This document shows, one piece after another, positions 20,661 through 38,810 of a DNA stretch of 64,000 nucleotides. Source of the stretch: Trichoplax adhaerens (Eukaryota > Animalia > Placozoa); contig NW_002060944.1 in assembly GCF_000150275.1 (NCBI RefSeq), positions 7,244,756 to 7,308,755 of the forward strand. Direction: 5' to 3'. The position numbers and the translations under genes were made by a program. Within the stretch, counting starts at the first letter, position 1, and each line of letters opens with the position of its first letter. The notes beneath the pieces were generated by a model. The model saw only the letters and a list, made by a program, of their open reading frames with translations. It did not search any database and was not told the DNA's origin.

Positions 20661-21599
20661 GATAATATCAGATCGGATACTGTAAAATCGAAGCATGAAA
20701 AATTTTTTGGTAGATTCATCTTGAGGAGTAAACTAGGAGAAAGAAAGCACGAAATGGCATTAGCTAGTATAAATTGAAACCTGGGTAAACTATTTAACTA
20801 ATCGATTAGACTACAAGAAGAACAACGATCAGATCAGCTATAGTGATAAATGGCATGGTGGTCCAGTATTGAAGCAACAACAACAACAATAATCAAGTTA
20901 ATAGAGATGCAAACAACGATATAACTTCCTAGGCTATCATTACAATTCTAATTTTCATTGCCTATGCAATTTACTAATAACTTGTTTCTTATGGAAATAT
21001 AGCAGAGTTAATCAATGCCGTGTATACCTAAACAGACTAATATAAATAGCAGCGCTATTGATGAATCACTTTATAAGTTAAATATATATCAGAATAGTAA
21101 GTAATGGGTGCGACCATGTGTAGTAAAACAACGACGTGAAATAACAAAGACTTGCCCAATTTGATTCTTATTTAAATAATTCCAACTAGGCATGACCGCC
21201 ATGATCCATTTTTAATTATAAAAACTTATTGAAATCAATCCTCTATCGCGATCATTTCAATAGAATAATAGCAAAATTGACCAATCGATTGTTCTACGCG
21301 AGGTAGTGCTAACATCCTTTACAGTCTACAACACCATTAACAACTGTTGGAATGGTTGGTGATCCAGGATAGTAGTCACATTTCGCTCTTATTACTGATA
21401 TCAGTAGATACTTATTTCCGTTACACTTAGACAAATATAAAATTGTCATTGGGTATATTGGTAGAGGAAATTGGTTATTTCTATTTCATCTATTTCCCTT
21501 CTACCGGCTACTAACAAGAAGCTAGTGAGGCTAATTTTCTCTCCATTCTCCCTCTTCTTTGCTGCATTGACTTTGGGATGCAATTAATAAGCACATAAC

Positions 21600-22920
21600 C
21601 TAAGGTAAGTCGGTTATGTTGTTTTAATTCCAACGGCTTGAATTCCAACTAAACAGGACTGCTTAAAACTCTTCAATATCCTTTTCCCGCTTTATATCTT
21701 CAACTGAATAGCATCAAAAGGACATTTTTGTACATGTTCTAATAACGATAATGTACTTTATTGGCTAATATTGACGACAACGTATCTGTCCTTCTTCGAA
21801 CACTACAACATTATTTTTATGCTAGTGAAATATCTAATCTCTAGTTTATCTTCTGCAACATGATTAAATATTATATATCAGCAGTGGAGCTCTTTATTCT
21901 TTAATCGACAATTTGTACATTTCACATCATCTTTAGAGTAGTTTTGTTCGATTTCCTGAAAAAAATGAGAAAACAGGTTTTACATAATAATTTCCATCTA
22001 TTCCATCGTTATTGGACATGGAGATCACTTTAAATTTGCATTAGCATCATGAAATAGACTTAAAAACACTTAGAACAGCATCTTTTAATTCGGAAAGGTT
22101 TAGAAATCGATTTTTTAAGTCCAATTATAAACTAAACATACGAGAGAATGGAAATATTCCGATAATCTTGCAATATACCAGTACTCGTATCGTAAGCCCT
22201 CCTTAAATCATTCCATTTGTGCTAGTTCAGTCCAATTTTGAATCATGGCTAACTCACAGACAGTATCAATTTGCTGTAATCGTCGAATTATCATAGCATT
22301 TAACTTGATTAATTAAGTTTTAATAATCTCCACGTGCCTTCTACTTGTATCCCACACTGGATCATTTATCACAGTTCAACATCCCCTCTACCGAAAATTT
22401 CCTATTCTTAAATATGACGCTGGTTGATTTCTTCTTGAACTTTTAAAATATCCAAGTTCATTTTCCATAGCTCATCGGTAGATATCCAAACAATCACTAT
22501 TTTTGTTCACTATTGGAATCATTTTTCTGCTGATAGATAGAGTGTTCGTTGTGCCTGATTGCAATCAGTGAGCGAAATCATCGATAAACAAGATAAAATC
22601 TGACTTTTCACTCCACTTAAGCAATCGAAAATTTTGTTAACGCCCTCTTTAATACATTACATTTATTAGACTTTAAGTACACACAAATATTTTCTCCCTC
22701 TCTTCTAATAAGGTCAAGGATAAGATTCTGTATCGTTGTTTTTAATATTCCTATTATACCTTTTCGGCAATATCAGGATATTATTCCACTTTTATGTCAT
22801 AAAATAACTTTTAAAATTCACTAGGTTACCATCCTAAGATATTGACAGGGAACCGAACTACATATAAACAGCGGCAGCGACCTTTAGCAAAATGAATACT
22901 AGTTGACGTACTGTAGATTA
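21600..22920 (-). pseudogene. Heavily decayed coding relic, possibly a NACHT/STAND NTPase
   Basis: Long protein-like frames broken by stops. Walker-B-like SDFILFIDDF (~22575-22605), upstream ...CQYL..., downstream VFSF..QE resembling the NACHT-associated F.H..FQE. No intact Walker A. Confidence 0.3.
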
Positions 22921-23087: not shown

Positions 23088-23452
23088 ATGTTATTCTAAA
23101 GCAACGTCCAATTTCTACTTCCTCCTATACTGGGCAGAGTATAGGTGGTTAGACAAGTGAAACTAAAATGTTACTATTCTCATGGCTATACCCTTTTTGA
23201 TTTTCATCACTGAAAAAATGCTATTCTACCTTTATGTCCAATCTCTACTTTCTCCCATATTGAGTAGAGTATAGATCTCTAGATAAGTAGAAAAATAAAA
23301 TGATACTATTTTCAGAGCTATTACGTTTTTGGTTTTCATCGCTGTAAAAATACTATTCTACCACTATGTCCAATCTCTACAACCTCTTATATTGAGTAGA
23401 GTATAAGTGGTAAGATAAGTAGAAAACTAAAATGCTATTATTCTCATGGTAA
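23088..23452. repeat. Three tandem copies of a ~130-bp unit
   Basis: tattcta...gtccaat.tctac....tatt/ctgagtagagtata.gt..ttagataagt.gaaa.taaaatg..acta occurs three times. Confidence 0.85.
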
Positions 23453-25533: not shown

Positions 25534-28500
25534 ATGGATAACGACAATCAAGAAATTCACGAATCCATCCTAGATGATACGACTGGTGTTCCTGATTTAA
25601 TCTTATTAGATGAAGTCAGCGACAATGCTATTTTATTCAATTTGCAACAGCGATATTACGATAATCAAATTTATGTAAGACGTATTGAATCGCTAGATTT
25701 TATTCTTTTGGATATCTTTAATAACTAAAGAGAATGATATTTGCTATAATTTCCTGTTTTATGATGCTATATGTAGCTGAAAATATCAATTTGACTATTC
25801 GATCAAATTTTAACTTATTCCATGCTATCGCCAATTTGAATGTGGTCTTTGGATAAAGTTTATGAAATTATTAAATCATCGTCCTGACTTTGCTTTTATA
25901 GACATATATTGGAAATGTAGTCATCTCCGTTAACCCATATCAGAAATTGCCAATTTATACATCCGAAACAATTCTCAACTATCGCGGCAAAAGTCTATAC
26001 GAACTTCAGCCTCACATGTAAGAAATTTAGGATACAAATTGATTAATCTACTTGTCAGCTAACACCAATTTAAAAGTCGCCCATTTTAAGTACAATATTT
26101 CTCGACCAGTGCAATAATACAGCCTCTATTTATTCTGAGATACATAATCCAAATCAATACATATAACCTCTTTCTCTTATTTATAACGCACTTCAGTGTC
26201 TGCATTATCAGTTTGTGAATATCACATGTTTTATTAGTTATGCTATAGCTGACAATGCTTATCGAGCACTGCGAGATCGAGACGAAGACCAATGTGTGAT
26301 TATTAGTGGAGAAAGTGGTTCAGGCAAAACAGGTAACTATGTTAATTAACAAAAATTGACCATCACTATCGTAAAAGAATCGGAGAATTGATTCTGTGAA
26401 TGATGTACTATATAAGCAAGGATCGCTGATAAATTGGCGTAGACTAATCTCAGTATTCAATAACGTTAATAGAAGCATCCAAGGTAGTCATGCAGTACAT
26501 TGCTGCAGTGTCAGGAAAAAGTAAAGATGTTGAATTAGTAAAAGAGCAACTACTTCAAACCAATCCTCTACTAGAAGGTAAGAAATATCGGCTAAGTAAT
26601 GATATAAATTGATAGTTAACGGAGCATATAGAGCATTATAATTATAATTACTTGCCTACGTATAATATTAACTATCAATTAGACCCTTTTCTGGTACAAC
26701 TTTTTGAGCTAACTCAAGTACAATCTAAATAATTACTAATTAGTTTAGCAATTCTACATTCAAAGCTTGATAATCTAGTCGCATAATATACACGCTACGG
26801 TCACTTACACGAGTCTATTTAAAATAATAGTAGCAAAATTTGATAGTCTACTGTATATCCTGATAGATAGATGGGCTATTCACAGCATCTACATTGAAAA
26901 AGCTAATCAAGTTCATAAACAGAATCGATTATTCAGTTATAAATTGTTATACAGTTTCCAGATAGTAAATTAAACATTAAAATTAGTATGAGTATACTGC
27001 AGCCCTCGCTAAATTCCGCAAAGACCATGTACTTACAGTATTATGAAAAATTAGATATTGTCCATGTATCCTAAGTGAATTATACTCATCCACTACCAGT
27101 AACTAATTTAATCCTTATCAATGTTCTATATTAGATGCACTCGATTTGTTGTAATTGAATTGTACCTGTATACTACTAGTCATGAATTCAATTCTCAACT
27201 AATTTCTAATTTTACATTTAGCGTTTGGAAATGCTAAAACTCATCGAAACAACAACTCATCTCGCTTTGTAAGCATACGCTGTACTGCTATATTTATTTC
27301 TCACATCTTTTCGTACAGTTGACTAATAATACTTCATTACCTTAGGGAAAGTACATGGATATCGAATTCGACTTTAAAGGAGATCCTGTCGGAGGTGTTA
27401 TTACAAATTGTAAGTTTAGCTATAGGGCAGACTAGTTAGAATATTCTGGCTAGTCAAATCAATCCTAGATATTAGCGAAATTAATTATTATACTTTTCTT
27501 TGACCTCTCGCTTCTACTACCATATGAAATGGAAAATACTATAAAGATCTTTTAGAGAAGGTAAGGAGATCATAATATGTAGGATTTTGAACTAAAGTAG
27601 TTATTTTAATGATAAAATCTACTTAGTGTGGCTGTTTACTTCTCAACGATAATCTACATGCATATGAAAATACTAAATGTGAGCATTTTGATAGTCTCGT
27701 GTTGTATCTCAAGCTGATGGCGAGAGAAATTTTCATATTTTCTATCAATTACTGGTCGGAGCATCAGAACAAATTTTAGGTGCAGTAAAGTACTCTTTTA
27801 TCCTTCCATACAATGTAGAAAGATATTTTTAAGCATACCTAAATTATACTTTTCATTAACAAATTAGATCATATTAAAATTATCTAAATTTTAAAAATTT
27901 CCATTTCAGATGATTTATATCTAACGGACGATATACGAGATTACAACTACATAAATCCTTATTCAGTAGCAACAGAAATTGACGAAAATGATTTTACGGA
28001 GACTCTAGTGAGTTGATTGTTTATAGCTGTAAAGCTGTAGTAATCCCACATGAAGCAGTTGCTGTTCTGAGATCCTGAAATGACACTGCACTAACTGCTA
28101 CGATCAATCTTTGCATTATAGCAAGCTATGGAAATAGTTGGCTTTCAATCAATTGAGGTCAAATATGTACTGCAACTTCTTGCAGCAATACTTCATATTG
28201 GAAATCTTCAGTTGAGTGAAAAGGAAGATGAGAGTGGAAATGAATTCAGTGAAATTAATTTAAATCGAGGTAGGAATATATTAGCAATTCTCAAATACGT
28301 TTAATATAATTACAAAAAAACTACAGACAACCCCTATATTACTACGTAGTCGAATATATTATAACTCAACTTGATTTAATAAATAAATAATTATTATAAA
28401 CGATTATAAATTCCAATAGTTTTTTCTCATTTATTTCTACTGTATTTACTTTGTAGATCTACAAATTGTCTCAAAGTTAACAAACTGTAAAATTAGCCAA

Positions 28501-31500
28501 TTCCAATATGCTATCACTCAAAAGCTTGTAGAAACAAAATATGAACAAGTAACAACGTCATTAACAATTGCACAAGTTAGTAGCAAAGATTTTTTTACCT
28601 GTACATTATTAGATTGTCTTACTTATTATAAACGACTCAATGCCATTTTCTATCGTACAGGCACGGTATGCTCGAGATGCGCTTGCTAAAGCCATTTACA
28701 GTCGTTTATTCTCATGGATTGTAGATAAAGTTAATGAATCACTGACGGTATGCCATGTGCTAGTTTTCAATATCGTATTTTTTCATAACTACGATTTATA
28801 CTCAATATCATCAGTAGGGAATCGTACAACAGTTTATACGATATAAAAGAAAGATTATGATCGTTGTTACAGGTAAAAGAAACAGCAACGAGGAAAGTAA
28901 TGGGAGTTCTTGATATTTATGGATTCGAAATATTTCAAGTTGGCAAAATTCTTTGTTATTTAATAGTTTACGCATTTAATCCAGTCAAAGCAAGTTAATA
29001 TCTAATAATCTTGACTCAATTTTACCCCACGTAGAATAATTCATTTGAACAATTTATCATCAATTATTGCAACGAGAAACTACAACAAATTTTTATTGAA
29101 ATGACATTAAAATTAGAACAAGAAGAATACGTAAATGAGGTAAGAATATATCAATACGTAACCTTACTATTGCTCAATAAGTTAATACTACGATCAAGCC
29201 TTTATCGTAATTTACTATAAATGTATTTTACTTACCTAGGGCATGCCATGGACCCATATCGATTATTTTAACAATAAAATCATTTGTGATTTAATAGAAA
29301 AGGTAGAAAAACATCATGTGTATTACAGTACAGTATTAAATTCTTGAAGATTAAAATATTTTAGTTGTTTATTTATGAGGAATAAATAAAGTTAACTAAC
29401 ACATTAATATACGTATATTTCATTTTATTTCAACAGAATAATGGAATTTTATCAATGTTGGACGAAGAATGTATTAGACCTGGGAAGGTAAGAAAATTGT
29501 AATTGTACAAATAGTAATAATTAATGGGCTACTTTATTTACCTTATTTATAATAATTTGTCGTGAACGCTAAAAAAGTTGAAATTACCCTGCTAGTATTA
29601 AATGTCTTACTTGCGTAATGTCAAATATGATCCCATAAATCGATAGTTACCTGTAGCAAGACCAACATTATCCGTACTAAGGCTTAAGATTCACCCTGTA
29701 TCAATACATATATTAAAAATGAAAATATTGCATTTATTGGTTCAGAAAGTAATGCGAAGGTGACTGGTTATTGCTATACGTATTATTTAAAAGAATTTTA
29801 TAATATAATATAATATAGGTTAGCGATAAGACGTTTCTTGACAAGTTAAATAACCGATGTAGTAAACATCCTCATTATCAAAGTAAATCGATGAAAGAGT
29901 TTTCTCGTGATTCGACTCTCGATCGAGAATCATTCCGCTTAGTCCATTATGCAGGAAATGTAAGTTTGACTATTCTAATTGCAGCAAAATAGTTAACATA
30001 TGTGTGCAGTATTGACTTAAGAAGAGAACTAGAGCCAAGTGGTCTTAACTTTTTCATTTTTTGATTAGGTAACTTACAATGTTAACGGTTTCATCGATAA
30101 AAACAATGATAATCTACATCGCAATATTTCTCAAGCGATGTATACGAGTGGAAATCCGTTACTGCAATTTCTCTTTATTGAGGGTAATCCAAAATTAGCC
30201 TCTCGTAAAAGACCACCAACATCGGGTTCTCAATTTAAGGTTTATAATAGATATTAAAAGATAATATACTTTCTTTCTATTTTGTAGATTTAAATATGCG
30301 ATGAATTCGCCTACAATTTTTTCTTTCTACTAACGTGTCATTGCCGCATAGAAATCGGTTGCACAATTAATGGTCAATCTTCTGGCTAAAACTCCTAACT
30401 ATATTCGATGTATAAAGGTATTAAATACATACTGTATATATCGTATAATAATAAGTGCAATATTATTATAGTATTTCAAATTTATCTCTAAAATATCGGA
30501 AGAAATCTTAAACACTATCTGCTATTTTATATTAATAGCCTAATGATAAGCAAATTCCGGAAGATTTCGATATTTCTATTGTTCGCCATCAGATCCAATA
30601 TCTCGGGTAATTTTGACTTTAAATATGTCAATAATAAATCAATGTGTGATCAAGTTGCAATATAATGAAATTTCTTAATAAATAAATCTTTAGCTTACTA
30701 GAGAATGTACGAGTTCGTCGTGCTGGATATGCTTTCCGACAAACCTATGCCAAAATTTTATACCGGTATACAAGAACAACTGAACATATCACAATATATT
30801 TGTCACTTTGAAGTATATGTATATATATATACTCGTAAGATATTCGATTAAGGCAATGGTTGAAATACTTATTCGTATATTGCTATGGAATAACCAGAAA
30901 TTTGATTTTAATTATTTGGCTAATTAGATATAAGATGTTGTCGATGGCTACTTGGCCAAGATGGGAAGGTGATACTAAAGCTGGAGTGCAAGAGATGATT
31001 GAAGTAAGAATTACTAAATAATAGGATTGTCTGGGTTCTACAGCTTTAACTAAAGCCAAAGTTATAGATTTACTTTATGCCTTAGTCGAGTTTTAAAAGC
31101 CCAAAATCGCTATCAAAAACAAAATTTCTAAGTAACCTGCAACTTATAGTATCAATTTAAAATTAAACTTCTACAGTAGCTCATAATTAACTTCAGTTAT
31201 CAATTACAACAATTTTAAAATCAGAATCGTCATAAGAATTTATGCTATTAAATACAGTATCAAAAGATTAAAATTTAATATCGCTTCGATGATTCAGTGA
31301 GGTATACAATCGATTAGAGAAACACAAAGGCAGAATGAATATCATAATAACCAATCTTCTATTATAATAATACTTCTTCTTATAGTCATTACCTATTGAA
31401 CCAAATGAATACGCTTATGGTAAGACGAAATTATTCATTCGAAATCCACGAACAGTAAGTAATGGCTCCTAAAATACCGTATATTATTTAAGTATTTTAC

Positions 31501-34500
31501 CCAAATTTATACTAAACAGAAATATTCATGAATTATTGTTAGATAATTAATTACCGTAATATTCTTTAGAACTTGAGGATAAAATATGTTAAGCTAAATA
31601 TTGATGTATTGAAAGCCTTATTGGTTTTTTTAAAACAGTTGTTTAATATGGAAGAATGGAGACGAATGCGATTGTATGATTTAGCGACAGAAATTCAAGC
31701 AAAATTTAGAGGTTTCTATCTGAGAAAATGGGTTAGTTTATGAAAAATCATTTCAGTATGACTACTAATTACTATGGAATGTAAACTCAGGAGAACAATA
31801 TCCGATTATGCCATACTTAATATTGAAATACTATTATAAAGCACGTCGAGGTTTTAATTGTCAAATACAATTGCTTTTAATTTATAGTATTTAAGATTAC
31901 GTCGTAGTCAAATTTCCATTTCAGCGAATTGGCGATGCTATCGTGTAAGTTATGCAAATGGTTTCCTGAGATTGTTTAAATTATTCTATCCTGTACCTGT
32001 ATGCTAATTAACTATCTCTTTTAATTTTGCGATTGGCTTGGCTAAATGTGAACATGCATAGGAACGAGCAAGTTTCCTAAGTGTTCGTTTCGCCTCCATT
32101 GCGGTTCAGCGATTCTGTCGCGGGTGGAAGGTAGTAATGTTGATCGATTGCAAAATAAGCTATATGACTTTTTACAAGATTTGTAGTACAGTAGTTATTT
32201 GCGAGCTTGAATTCCGACTAGATTATCGTTAACTTGAAACACCTGTTGTATTTGATTCTGCCATTATCATCTAGGCGAGAAAACTGTTTAAAGCAATGTT
32301 GTACGAGAAGAAATGTACATGGGCTCAAGGGATAATCACCAAGTTCTTTTATGGATGGAAAGTATGTCATTATTTTTTGTTGAAAATGTCATCAGTAAAT
32401 ATATGCTATAGGTGGCGTAAGTAATTTTTTCTTTCGATAATATTGTTACTACCAGGCTAGAAAGCTATACCGCAAATTGAAATATGAGAAGCAATGTACT
32501 ATAGCACAAGGAGTCATTAGGAGATTTTATTTTGGCTGGAAAGTAAGTTGTGTTAAAACTGCTGAACAACATAACCACCGTTTGCAGTTATACTGTTTTA
32601 TCCGTTTATTAACTCCGATCTGTTCACCTGCTGTATTTTTCCAATTTCGTTTGCATTCCTCTCTAAAATCTTAAATCATATAGCAAATTTTATAATTTAA
32701 AGAGTTCATTACTTAAAATGTCTAGTTTCTTTCGCAACATTGCTCGTAAACCTGTATAGTATCTTATCTCTGTATTATTTGATGTTAGTGAATTACAAAT
32801 TTATTAGTCAGTAGAACTAGCTATTACAGGTCATTTACTGTCTTTAAAGAGGATATTTGCTAGCTCAAGTTCGAATATTTAAACCAACAGCTATTTTTTT
32901 ACTTCATAGGCAAGAAAGTTGGCTCGACTGTTACGCGAAGAAAAACGTCGTAAACTGGCTGTCAATGTCATTCGAACTTTTTTCTTCGGCTGGCAGGTAC
33001 CTTAGTAAATGCTTGAGTTAAAAGAAGGGAGATAGATATTTCTCGTTTCGATCTGTTTATGTTTTCAGTAAGAGATTCATTACAATATTTTTACTAACGT
33101 AGACTACTCATCGTCAGTACTTTTATTTTTTAATCCAGAATATAAATATTTATGATGATAATTTATAGCCCATAAATCTAACTCGTTCTGTTAAAATTGT
33201 AGGCTAGAAAGCTTGCTCGTAAACTACGAGAAGAAAAACGTCGTAATTTGGCAGCTAATGTGATTCGAACTTTTTTCTTTGGTTGGCAGGTTAAGAGTTG
33301 TTTCAGAAAACATTTTTATACAAGGAATTATATACCATATTTAGTCTCTTTATATATTAATGTCGATTTAGGCCAGAAAACTTGTTCGAGCTTTAAGACT
33401 TGAAAGAAAACGCAACAATGCCTCAACAACTATTCGTGCATATTATATAGGCTGGCAGGTGAAAATTTATTAGTGGCTTGTCAAAATATCGATTTTTTAA
33501 ATGTTTACTTTAAATGAATGCTTAACCTAGTAATTTAGAAAAACGATAAGGCTAACAGTAACTTAAATCTGGATATTTCTAGATTCGAAAGAAATATCGT
33601 AAAAAATTTCCTTCTATTGCTGGGCCCAAAGTATACCGATTTTTGCGCCAAAGCTTGGTAAAATAATACTTTCACTTCATTACGATATCGGCACACAAAG
33701 ACTACGATATTGAACTAAAGAGATTATATCCTCTAATATTATCTTATTACCAACTTACCAACTAGAATTATCGATTTTTGAAAGCTGTTATTGATGAGTT
33801 ACCATCGGAATCGCCTATAGAGAAAAATTGGCCGTCTTGCGGTCCTATGTTTGAAGAAATTTCTGACCAATTAAGGGAAATGCATCATGTTTGGCGAGTA
33901 AGTGATCCTTTAGCCTTGTTTAGGTTATTGCTAATTACTGCATAATTCACGGTATACATTATATTATTACCTTTTGAATCGATTAGTGTGCTCGATTTCG
34001 CCGTCGTTTATCTCCAGAACAGCGCGAAATCTACTCGGAAAAACTATTAGCTAGCCAACTCTTCAATAATAAAAAGGAATACTATTCCCAAACGTAAGTA
34101 CTACCAATGTCAATGATTACTCATCAATGCATCCATTTTTGTATTACTGTGTAAATTATCTACCTTTGGCAATTAGAATTGTTGTAGTTAGCTGTAAAAT
34201 TAAAATATATAATTTACTTCTTATACAACTAATATTCGGTTTGAATATAGTGTTGGGGTACCATTCCGTGGTGATTATTGCGGCTTAGGCAAGCATCCAC
34301 TGTGGAAGACGATTACGAAAGGATATGATAAAGATAAAGAAGTTCATTGGGCTGATACTGTTATTAAATTACATCGTGCTAATGGAAAGGTGAGAGAATC
34401 AACTTAACTAATACTGTTTAATTAAAATGGGAGGCGAGTTTAACATTATATTGCTGATTGCATTGCTAAACTAGTTCCATTTCAATTCCGAAATCAGTTG

Positions 34501-35529
34501 CTATACCGTATACGCGTAGATCAGAAAGAACGGAAATAATTGTTCATGTCGTGCTAAGATCCACAATAAAGAGTTTGCTGTAGCAAATGTTGTGTTGTTC
34601 AGCTCAATTACGAATAGAGCTTTGCTAATTTACTGTAATAATCGAGCAATTAAAGTGGACTAAGTCATCAAATAAAAGCTATGTACTAAATATCAATGCT
34701 TTTTGATACTGCAGTACATTGATGTACTCGTAGAACGCTATTAAAGTCAATCCGCGAATTAAGTATTCGATAATTTTCTTAGGAGATAGAATAAATTTAA
34801 CCTTTTGTACTTTGAGTTTCATGAAAAGAGAATCTCTTCATCATGGAAAGCTATCATTTTATTTTAAGATTGCCTCTTCAAGACTATTCAATGAAGGCAA
34901 CCGATTCTAATCTATAATCTCCTTTTGAATTACTTTTTGCAGGGTGTACCGAGAATTTTAGCTGTTACTGGTGCTGCTATAATAATATTAGATTCTAAAA
35001 CACTGAGCTTAAAATATCGTATTCCACTTCACGAATTAGCTACATTATTATTTAGTCCTCATAACGATACAGTTTGCGTTATTCAATGTAGAATGGTAAG
35101 AAAACTGATGATCAATCATTTTACAGCATTAATTTGAGAAATAGAAAATTTTTAATTGGCATCATTTCCGTATGATTTATGTTGTACAGGATAAAACATT
35201 GCCTCATCTGAAGAAAGGGGATTTCTTAATTCAAACTCATCATGTTATCGAATTAGCAACAAAGATAGTACTTGTATTGAAAGATCTCAGCATATCCAAT
35301 GACGAACCTGTCGTTAAAATTGCAAAGAAGTAAGCTTTTCTAATCGTTCTAGCTTAAATTTAAACTGTATATTGACAATTTGATCTGATTTATAATTTGG
35401 CTGGTATTTCGTAGATTTCCAATCAATTATCATGGTAAATGTTTACATGCATCATTTATCAAAGCGGAACAAACTCTTATTGACGCTGTGACCAAAAAAA
35501 AGCGTTCTCAATTTGAAATCTATGTCTAA
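25534..35529 (+). CDS. MYO1B: Unconventional class I myosin, MYO1A/B-type: motor domain, 8 IQ-type exons, TH1 tail
   Basis: [11 protein letters not shown]; [13 protein letters not shown]; P-loop GESGSGKT; [18 protein letters not shown]; DIYGFE; NVRVRRAGY; [10 protein letters not shown]; 29-aa ARK...GW[KQ] repeats like vertebrate Myo1b; TH1-type tail ending FEIYV*. Confidence 0.92.
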
Positions 35530-37659: not shown

Positions 37660-38810
37660 TACAGTACTGTCGACTTGAGTGTATCGTATTACCGTCGGAT
37701 GGATCAATTGCTGCATCATCACGCTCCTGGTCCATCCACTATCCATCCACCACCTACAGTGCAAGACTGGTCAAGCTACAGTACAGTACTGTCGTGATCG
37801 GGTACTGTGTACTGTACAGTACAGTACTGTACGCTAGTGGCCACAGTACTGCACTGTAGAGATGAATCTTGACACTGTAGTCGGACGGACTCCCAAATGA
37901 TACTGTTGCAATACTACTGTACTGTGCAGTACTGTACAGTACATTGAGTGTACAAGTGTACACTGTACAGTACAAGAGTAGCAAAGACTACAGTACTGTA
38001 CAGTACAGTACTGTACTGTACAAGTGTACATACTGTAATTTTCTGCTACTGGGTACTGTACTGTACTGTGTTATACTGTACTGTACCCTATACTGTACTG
38101 TAGAGTACAGAGGTAAGAAAAAACCTCTACAGTACAGTACTGTATGAAGAAAAGTTTTCTGTACTGTATGATCTTCACATTTGCCAGGTGAAAGTTGCTA
38201 CAGATTACTTTTGAGCAGACACAGAACTGTACAGTATTCTGTAGCCGTGAGTCGTTACTTGATTAGTGTAAGTACATGTACAGTACAGTAGAGTACAGAG
38301 GTAAGAAAAAAACCTCTACAGTACAGCACTGTATGAAGAAAAGTTTTCTGTATGATCTTCACATTTGCCAGGTGAAAGTTGCTACGGATTGCTTTTGAGC
38401 AGACGCAGTACTGTACAGTATTTAGTAGCCGTGAGTCGTTACTTGATTAGTGTACTGTACAGTACTGTACAGTGCACATTGTACAGTACATTGTACTGTA
38501 CAGTACTGGACTGGACTGGAACAAGATCAGTTGTCACTCAGGTCTAGTTGTCAGCCTTCAAACTTTCCACTGTGTCCTTGGGGAGTCCATCCGACTACAG
38601 TGCAAAGACTCATCTCTACAGTACAGTACTGTATCACAAGCTATAGGCCAAAGGAGATTGGTAGAATGAGACCATAGTAAGTCTTGGAAATTCAACTGTG
38701 CCACTAACATGCTACCAAAATGGTCAGTAGGCGAAACTACAGTACACTGAGTACAGTGTAGAGTCGCGCTTGGTCAGGTGACTCATCTCACCTACGGTAC
38801 TGCAAAGGAG
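37660..38810. promoter_or_regulatory. Bidirectional SEM1/MANBA promoter region with dense TACAG/CTGTA array, inverted ~55-bp element and internal direct duplication
   Basis: Head-to-head genes (ATGs at 37557 and 39147). Inverted arms 37843-37896 and 38578-38632. Confidence 0.7.
38100..38454. repeat. Near-identical direct duplication (38100-38270 and 38288-38454)
   Basis: gtagagtacagaggtaagaaaaaacctctac...ttcacatttgccaggtgaaag...gtgagtcgttacttgattagtgta appears twice. Confidence 0.95.

What the first reader, a model, noticed from the sequence alone, without database searches (positions are those of the whole stretch)
31639..33458. Myosin-I lever arm built from a modular array of IQ exons: 8 IQs, five identical-length 87-nt phase-0 cassettes
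Seen in sequence: after three IQ exons (31639-31731, 31888-31944, 32062-32130) come five exons of exactly 87 nt, all phase 0: 32275-32361, 32456-32542, 32910-32996, 33203-33289 and 33372-33458. Each encodes 29 aa, ARKL...[IV]I..F/Y..GW[KQ]. Pairs 4/5 and 6/7 are most alike, pointing to successive tandem exon duplications. Established: vertebrate Myo1b has alternatively spliced 29-aa IQ inserts giving 4-6 IQs, and lever length affects its tension sensitivity. Inference: this early-branching animal has an expanded version in which any subset of cassettes can be skipped in frame, giving a tunable lever arm (up to 32 combinations) longer than vertebrate Myo1b.
Basis: partly seen in the sequence, partly recalled or inferred. 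Interest (0 to 1): 0.8.

Follow-up and report, generated by a model that had tools for sequence, protein, structure and literature searches.

The report
Placozoan myosin-I with eight-repeat lever
This Trichoplax myosin-1a/b gene has five duplicated 87-base exons that give it eight IQ-like repeats and likely an unusually long lever arm, but its RNA keeps all five together, and some corals carry even longer arrays annotated as alternatively spliced.

Summary
The exon array is real: five 87-nt, phase-0, GT-AG exons, each encoding one 29-aa IQ-like unit, in the Trichoplax Myo1a/b orthologue (1193 aa, 38 coding exons). The splicing-tuning idea is not supported here. All 6 runs with spliced contigs (5 studies; 8 runs laid) carry one contig with all five cassettes and no skipping joint, although contigs drop rare forms. 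Phase 0 is no sign of skipping: 20 of 36 internal exons of this gene are phase 0-0. Eight IQs is not a record either. The 29-aa unit occurs 1-7 times in the longest forms of animal Myo1a/b (hemichordates 1, mammals 3-4, Acropora 6, Montipora foliosa 7 = 10 IQ-like). The full array is already in a public Trichoplax H2 protein. What stays of interest: a predominantly full-length, about 30-nm predicted lever, and a repeatedly expanded lever cassette across animals that 9 literature searches did not find described. Calmodulin binding and mechanics are untested.

The parts
25534..35529 (+). Myo1a/b-type myosin-I gene, ATG to stop, 38 coding exons, 1193 aa (motor, neck, TH1 tail)
   Evidence: Model; joints; equals P0001 in 1069 of 1069 aligned residues and P0002 at 1191 of 1193; Pfam Myosin_head and Myosin_TH1
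31639..31731 (+). Exon with IQ1 (IQAKFRG), 93 nt
31888..31944 (+). Exon with degenerate IQ2, 57 nt; IQ1-IQ2 spacing 23 aa
32062..32130 (+). Exon with IQ3, 69 nt; spacing 23 aa
32275..32361 (+). Cassette 4, 87 nt, 29 aa; closest to the first coral unit (23/29) rather than to its own neighbours (17/29)
32456..32542 (+). Cassette 5, 87 nt, 29 aa
32910..32996 (+). Cassette 6, 87 nt, 29 aa; most recent duplicate pair with cassette 7
33203..33289 (+). Cassette 7, 87 nt, 29 aa; 26/29 aa and 70/87 nt identical to cassette 6
33372..33458 (+). Cassette 8, 87 nt, 29 aa; closest to the later coral units (19/29)
33583..35529 (+). Post-IQ and TH1 tail exons

Best explanation
This is the Trichoplax orthologue of myosin-1a/b, whose neck grew to eight IQ-like units by tandem duplication of an 87-nt exon and whose assembled mRNA includes all five copies, so it likely works as a single-headed membrane-actin motor with a fixed lever predicted to be about 30 nm long. 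Shown: gene structure, splicing of the main form, closest-relative identity, and variation of unit number among animals. Inferred: each 29-aa unit (about 6 charged spacer residues plus a degenerate IQ core) binds calmodulin weakly, as the equivalent Myo1b units do, and extends one helix. By analogy with the Myo1b splice forms this would enlarge the working stroke and the force dependence of actin detachment. The symmetric phase-0 exon is what lets the unit duplicate without shifting the frame in many lineages; in corals, molluscs, amphioxus and vertebrates it is also annotated as skippable.
For: Splicing: 3 of 4 runs each gave one contig with all consecutive joints and no skipping joint (the fourth gave only unspliced fragments). 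The 21 joints cut from that table equal the number of model introns 14-34, leaving no row for a skip. Prior: exon-skipping frequency is reported lower in T. adhaerens and sponges, higher in cnidarians (PMC6142364, passages). Identity: best solved relatives are Myo1b (905 bits), then Myo1c (748) and myosin IE (687); short tail with TH1. Neck geometry 23-23-29n is shared with all parsed orthologues. Duplication age: no intron pair is more alike than shuffles (best 11/200), and 10 of 26 shared codons differ silently even in pair 6/7, so the copies are old and kept open. Myo1b lever background: PMC4914028, passages.
Against: Contigs drop rare variants, and the runs' tissue or cell content is not given, so cell-type-restricted skipping is not excluded. 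The older T. adhaerens model P0001 holds only cassettes 5 and 7; it also lacks the last exon, which points to an incomplete prediction, but its evidence was not seen. The cassettes fail the Pfam IQ model. No structure or calmodulin complex was predicted, so lever length rests on assuming a continuous helix.
Confidence: 0.72

Rival explanations
1. One reading: the cassettes are skipped in combinations, perhaps in particular cell types or stages, giving a splicing-tuned lever as in vertebrate Myo1b.
For: Cassettes are symmetric phase 0. Orthologous cassettes are annotated as skipped in corals, molluscs, amphioxus and vertebrates. Model P0001 has only two cassettes. Contigs cannot show absence (tool note).
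Against: 0 of 6 spliced contig sets from 5 studies shows a skip. 27 of 37 introns are phase 0 and 20 of 36 internal exons are 0-0, motor-domain exons included. Flanking introns are short (82-367 nt), and Trichoplax has a low skipping rate (PMC6142364).
Confidence: 0.2
2. The extra units serve mostly as a spacer or as weak, partly empty light-chain or partner sites rather than as a stiff calmodulin-clad lever; the array may be a tolerated by-product of easy exon duplication.
For: No cassette matches Pfam IQ. Myo1b IQ affinities span 0.2-5 uM and some sites may be empty (PMC4914028). Copy number differs widely between close relatives, such as Porites 2, Pocillopora 4 and Montipora 6-7.
Against: Core positions (I1, aromatic 5, G7, R11) and the 29-residue length are kept in all five copies despite many silent changes. 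Cassette 4 is 23/29 identical to the coral unit.
Confidence: 0.08

Closest known systems
Vertebrate myosin-1b (MYO1B) with its alternatively spliced IQ region
   Same: Closest solved motor (905 bits); TH1 tail; neck of three IQs at 23-aa spacing followed by 29-aa units that lack the Q and the R of the consensus.
   Different: Five 29-aa units rather than three (four in many teleosts, sloth and tamandua). No skipping seen here. The vertebrate spliced units form their own group (97/87 support) without any Trichoplax unit, so these are probably separate duplications.
Scleractinian coral Myo1a/b (Acropora, Montipora, Pocillopora, Stylophora; annotated 'myosin-Ib-like')
   Same: Best non-placozoan hits. 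Same unit; the first coral unit resembles cassette 4 and later units resemble cassette 8.
   Different: Up to 7 units (10 IQ-like) in M. foliosa and 6 in A. millepora, A. digitifera and M. capricornis, with database isoforms in 29-aa steps down to 1 unit in Montipora and 3 in A. millepora. Unnamed assembled-sequence proteins of this group carry 1-2 units (P0022, P0165, P0153, P0012).
Public Trichoplax models P0002 (Trichoplax sp. H2 'Unconventional myosin-Ib') and P0001 (TRIADDRAFT_20417)
   Same: Same gene; P0002 already holds all five cassettes.
   Different: P0002 has a 23-aa insertion before IQ1 that the RNA joint 31454-31639 does not support. P0001 lacks cassettes 4, 6 and 8 and the last exon.

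Membership tests
Class-I myosin, Myo1a/b subfamily | Myosin motor domain closest to Myo1a/b | tested here: met
   Pfam Myosin_head 853 bits; PDB ranking Myo1b 905 > Myo1c 748 > myosin IE 687 bits; the named hits that carry a myosin subtype name are Ib or Ia
Class-I myosin, Myo1a/b subfamily | Short tail with TH1 domain, no SH3 | tested here: met
   PF06017 79.4 bits; no SH3 family listed at E<=0.1
Class-I myosin, Myo1a/b subfamily | Placement in a motor-domain tree with Myo1c/h, 1d/g and 1e/f outgroups | not tested
   No such tree was built; orthology rests on best-hit scores and neck architecture
Myo1b-type splicing-tuned lever | Tandem frame-preserving 29-aa IQ-like cassettes | tested here: met
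Myo1b-type splicing-tuned lever | mRNA isoforms with different cassette numbers | tested here: not met
   6 of 6 spliced contig sets include all five; rare or cell-restricted skipping cannot be seen in contigs
Myo1b-type splicing-tuned lever | Calmodulin binding and length-dependent force sensing | not testable with these tools
   Needs binding assays and optical trapping
Canonical IQ motif (IQxxxRGxxxR, PF00612) | Q at position 2 and RG at 6-7; score above the Pfam cut-off | tested here: not met
   0 of 5 cassettes hit Pfam; whole protein 16.8 bits against a cut-off of 20.3; cores listed

The most novel reading that the evidence does not exclude
The 87-nt IQ cassette of Myo1a/b is an ancient animal lever-length dial that has been expanded separately in placozoans, acroporid corals, gastropods, sponges, teleosts and xenarthrans. 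Corals tune it by splicing over 4-10 IQs, while Trichoplax, which rarely skips exons, has fixed the longest predominantly expressed myosin-I lever in this sample (8 units, about 30 nm). Splicing control of myosin-I force sensing would then be far older and wider than vertebrates.
Probability: 0.45. Interest if true: 0.55.

Novelty: new variant of a known kind. Interest (0 to 1): 0.33.

Why it matters
Lever length sets step size and force sensing in Myo1b, but this is known only from the 4-6 IQ splice forms of mammals. A natural 8-unit lever that seems fixed, and a coral series annotated from 4 to 10 units, give ready-made material to test whether stroke and tension sensitivity keep scaling with length and whether 29-aa-spaced units form a rigid lever. 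The contrast between a placozoan that includes all copies and corals that are annotated to skip them is also a neat single-gene case for how exon skipping was recruited in early animals. As a locus, however, it is an already annotated gene of a well-known family.

Tried and rejected
No whole genome is held for this window, so paralogues and other placozoan genomes were not searched. No other placozoan genus and no Trichoplax short isoform appeared in three protein searches; this is weak evidence, as the searches are word-limited. The search of 50% representatives (393 hits, 150 listed, unnamed and mostly fragments) gave only 1 parsable neck with the first parser and added nothing. Runs X4 and X12 held only unspliced fragments and say nothing on splicing. 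Phase-0 symmetry as evidence of skipping was rejected. Recent duplication was rejected: no intron similarity. The idea that cassettes 4 and 8 descend from two units older than the placozoan-coral split is suggested by identities and trees (80/87 and 96/79 support) but not shown: an AU test on 44 of the 69 units (sponge, most mollusc, sloth and Labeo rows and duplicates left out) does not reject one clade of the five Trichoplax units (p 0.369). No fold or complex prediction was run: no calmodulin sequence was among the session's sequences, and a pass would mostly reflect solved IQ-calmodulin structures. Two look-ups of earlier scan findings returned nothing. The review PMC3558615 is not held.

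Full report
Observation. The eight exons are at the coordinates given, with AG/GT ends. The last five are 87 nt each and read open as 29-aa units. A 38-exon model from 25534 to 35529 translates to 1193 aa without an internal stop. It equals the T. adhaerens model P0001 in all 1069 aligned residues, and the Trichoplax H2 protein P0002 at 1191 of 1193. P0002 already contains all five cassettes; P0001 has only cassettes 5 and 7 and lacks the last exon. Pair 6/7 is clearly the closest (26/29 aa, 70/87 nt). Pair 4/5 (17/29, 54/87) is hardly closer than 5/7 (17/29, 52/87). None of the 15 pairs of neighbouring introns is more alike than shuffles (best 11/200), so the duplications are old.

What the gene is. 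Pfam gives a myosin head and a TH1 tail, and no SH3. Solved relatives rank Myo1b 905 bits, Myo1c 748, myosin IE 687. It is a Myo1a/b-type short-tailed myosin-I; no motor-domain tree was built. The cassettes are IQ-like: 0 of 5 hit Pfam, and they lack Q2 and R6 while keeping I1, an aromatic at 5, G7 and R11. The spliced IQs of vertebrate Myo1b lack the same two residues (PMC8327911, passages).

Is it skipped? Twenty runs were listed and 8 were laid, all kept as contigs. In one search, X5, X10 and X13 each gave one contig with every consecutive joint from 31454 to 33987 and no skipping joint; X4 gave six unspliced fragments. The 21 hidden rows equal the number of model introns 14-34. X12 gave only unspliced fragments. 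So 6 of 6 informative runs, from 5 studies, show the full form alone. Only X13 is on record as RNA; the others are taken as mRNA because their contigs are spliced. Contigs drop rare variants, so minor or cell-restricted skipping stays open. Symmetry is no argument for skipping: 27 of 37 introns are phase 0 and 20 of 36 internal exons are 0-0. Published exon-skipping frequency is lower in T. adhaerens and sponges and higher in cnidarians (PMC6142364, passages).

Is eight unusual? A search with the neck and tail listed 120 of 454 hits; it favours long necks and is rich in vertebrates and in isoforms of single genes, so rows are not independent. Of the first 123 proteins held, 116 could be parsed: 11 have one 29-aa unit, 19 two, 56 three, 26 four, 1 five (Trichoplax), 2 six, and 1 gave a non-integer count; 7 failed. 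One of the failed rows, Acropora cervicornis, shows five units by eye. Cluster look-ups added isoform series, counted. Montipora foliosa has 7, 6, 5, 5, 4, 3, 2, 2 and 1 units; M. capricornis 6, 5, 5, 4, 2, 2, 1; Acropora millepora 6, 5, 4, 3; Pocillopora verrucosa 4, 3, 3, 2, 1. Orbicella has 2 and 0, amphioxus 2, 1, 0, Pomacea 3, 2, 0 and Mercenaria 2, 1. Nematostella (4 of 4 members), two hemichordates and the Crassostrea rows counted have one unit; Haliotis has three and the sponge Ephydatia four. These isoforms are pipeline annotations, which I recall to be usually RNA-guided; I did not lay reads on them. Unnamed Logan proteins from the same coral clusters carry one or two units (P0022, P0165, P0153), which fits skipping but could reflect species with fewer copies. 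Eight units is therefore high but exceeded by corals with 9-10.

History. In a tree of 69 units (29 columns, mostly unresolved) the spliced vertebrate units form their own group (97/87). The later acroporid units form one group (96/83), and Trichoplax 6/7 pair up (99/85). Cassette 4 falls with the first coral unit (80/87; 23/29 identical) and cassette 8 beside the later coral units (96/79). An AU test on 44 rows does not reject a single Trichoplax clade (p 0.369), so a two-unit ancestor shared with corals is only suggested. Separate expansion in placozoans, acroporids and vertebrates is the likelier reading.

Mechanism. In Myo1b, splicing gives 4-6 IQs, stroke size grows with lever length, and calmodulin affinity of the IQs spans 0.2-5 uM (PMC4914028, passages; PMC13056627, passages). 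If the neck is one helix at 0.15 nm per residue, IQ1 to the last core spans 30 nm here, 22 nm in six-IQ Myo1b and 39 nm in the longest Montipora form. The best reading (0.72) is a mostly fixed long lever with a larger stroke and steeper force dependence; these last steps are inferred by analogy. Rivals are hidden regulated skipping (0.2) and a weakly occupied spacer (0.08).

Literature. Nine searches (listings only unless named) found no paper describing IQ expansion or skipping in placozoan, coral, mollusc or amphioxus Myo1a/b. Passages of PMC2375034 and PMC5378345 did not cover it. A 2026 preprint on snail myosin I a/b (10.64898/2026.06.09.731057; first of four parts and passages) reports three IQ motifs and has no mention of splicing. 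No supplements were read, subscription journals are mostly absent, and curated myosin databases (recalled, not checked) may already hold these gene structures.

Verdict. The feature is real and is a new variant of a known kind. The comparative pattern, a lever cassette that is repeatedly duplicated and widely annotated as skippable across animals, is the more useful lead. Interest 0.33.

Noticed in passing
window 27547-27560: A 14-nt micro-exon in the motor domain (YLLEK region); its letters stand between the two sides of joint 27409-27693 in 3 runs and it is needed for the frame.
   Followed up: yes
window about 21573-21604: The myosin mRNA has an upstream non-coding exon about 3.9 kb before the first coding exon: the loose end of 3 contigs matches here and is followed by a GTAAGT donor. 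The opposite strand nearby reads a short C..CPFDAIQ stretch that resembles the start of ABCE1 (resemblance recalled, not tested) without a clear open frame.
   Followed up: partly
window 32070: In runs X6, X7 and X11 a second contig matches part of the IQ3 exon and runs on for at least 255 unrelated letters upstream; possibly a short copy elsewhere in the genome.
   Followed up: no
window 34361-34791: An unspliced contig at depth 12 against 220 for the main contig in run X6, reaching into the 553-nt intron of the tail: minor intron retention or pre-mRNA.
   Followed up: no
window 37915-38502 and 23106-23446: Tandem repeats: a TACTGTACAG-rich tract with a 184-nt period downstream of the gene and a 132-nt period array upstream.
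   Followed up: no
proteins P0017, P0393, P0023, P0025, P0026: Sloth, tamandua and many teleost MYO1B models have four 29-aa units (7 IQ-like), above the 4-6 range given in the review read.
   Followed up: partly
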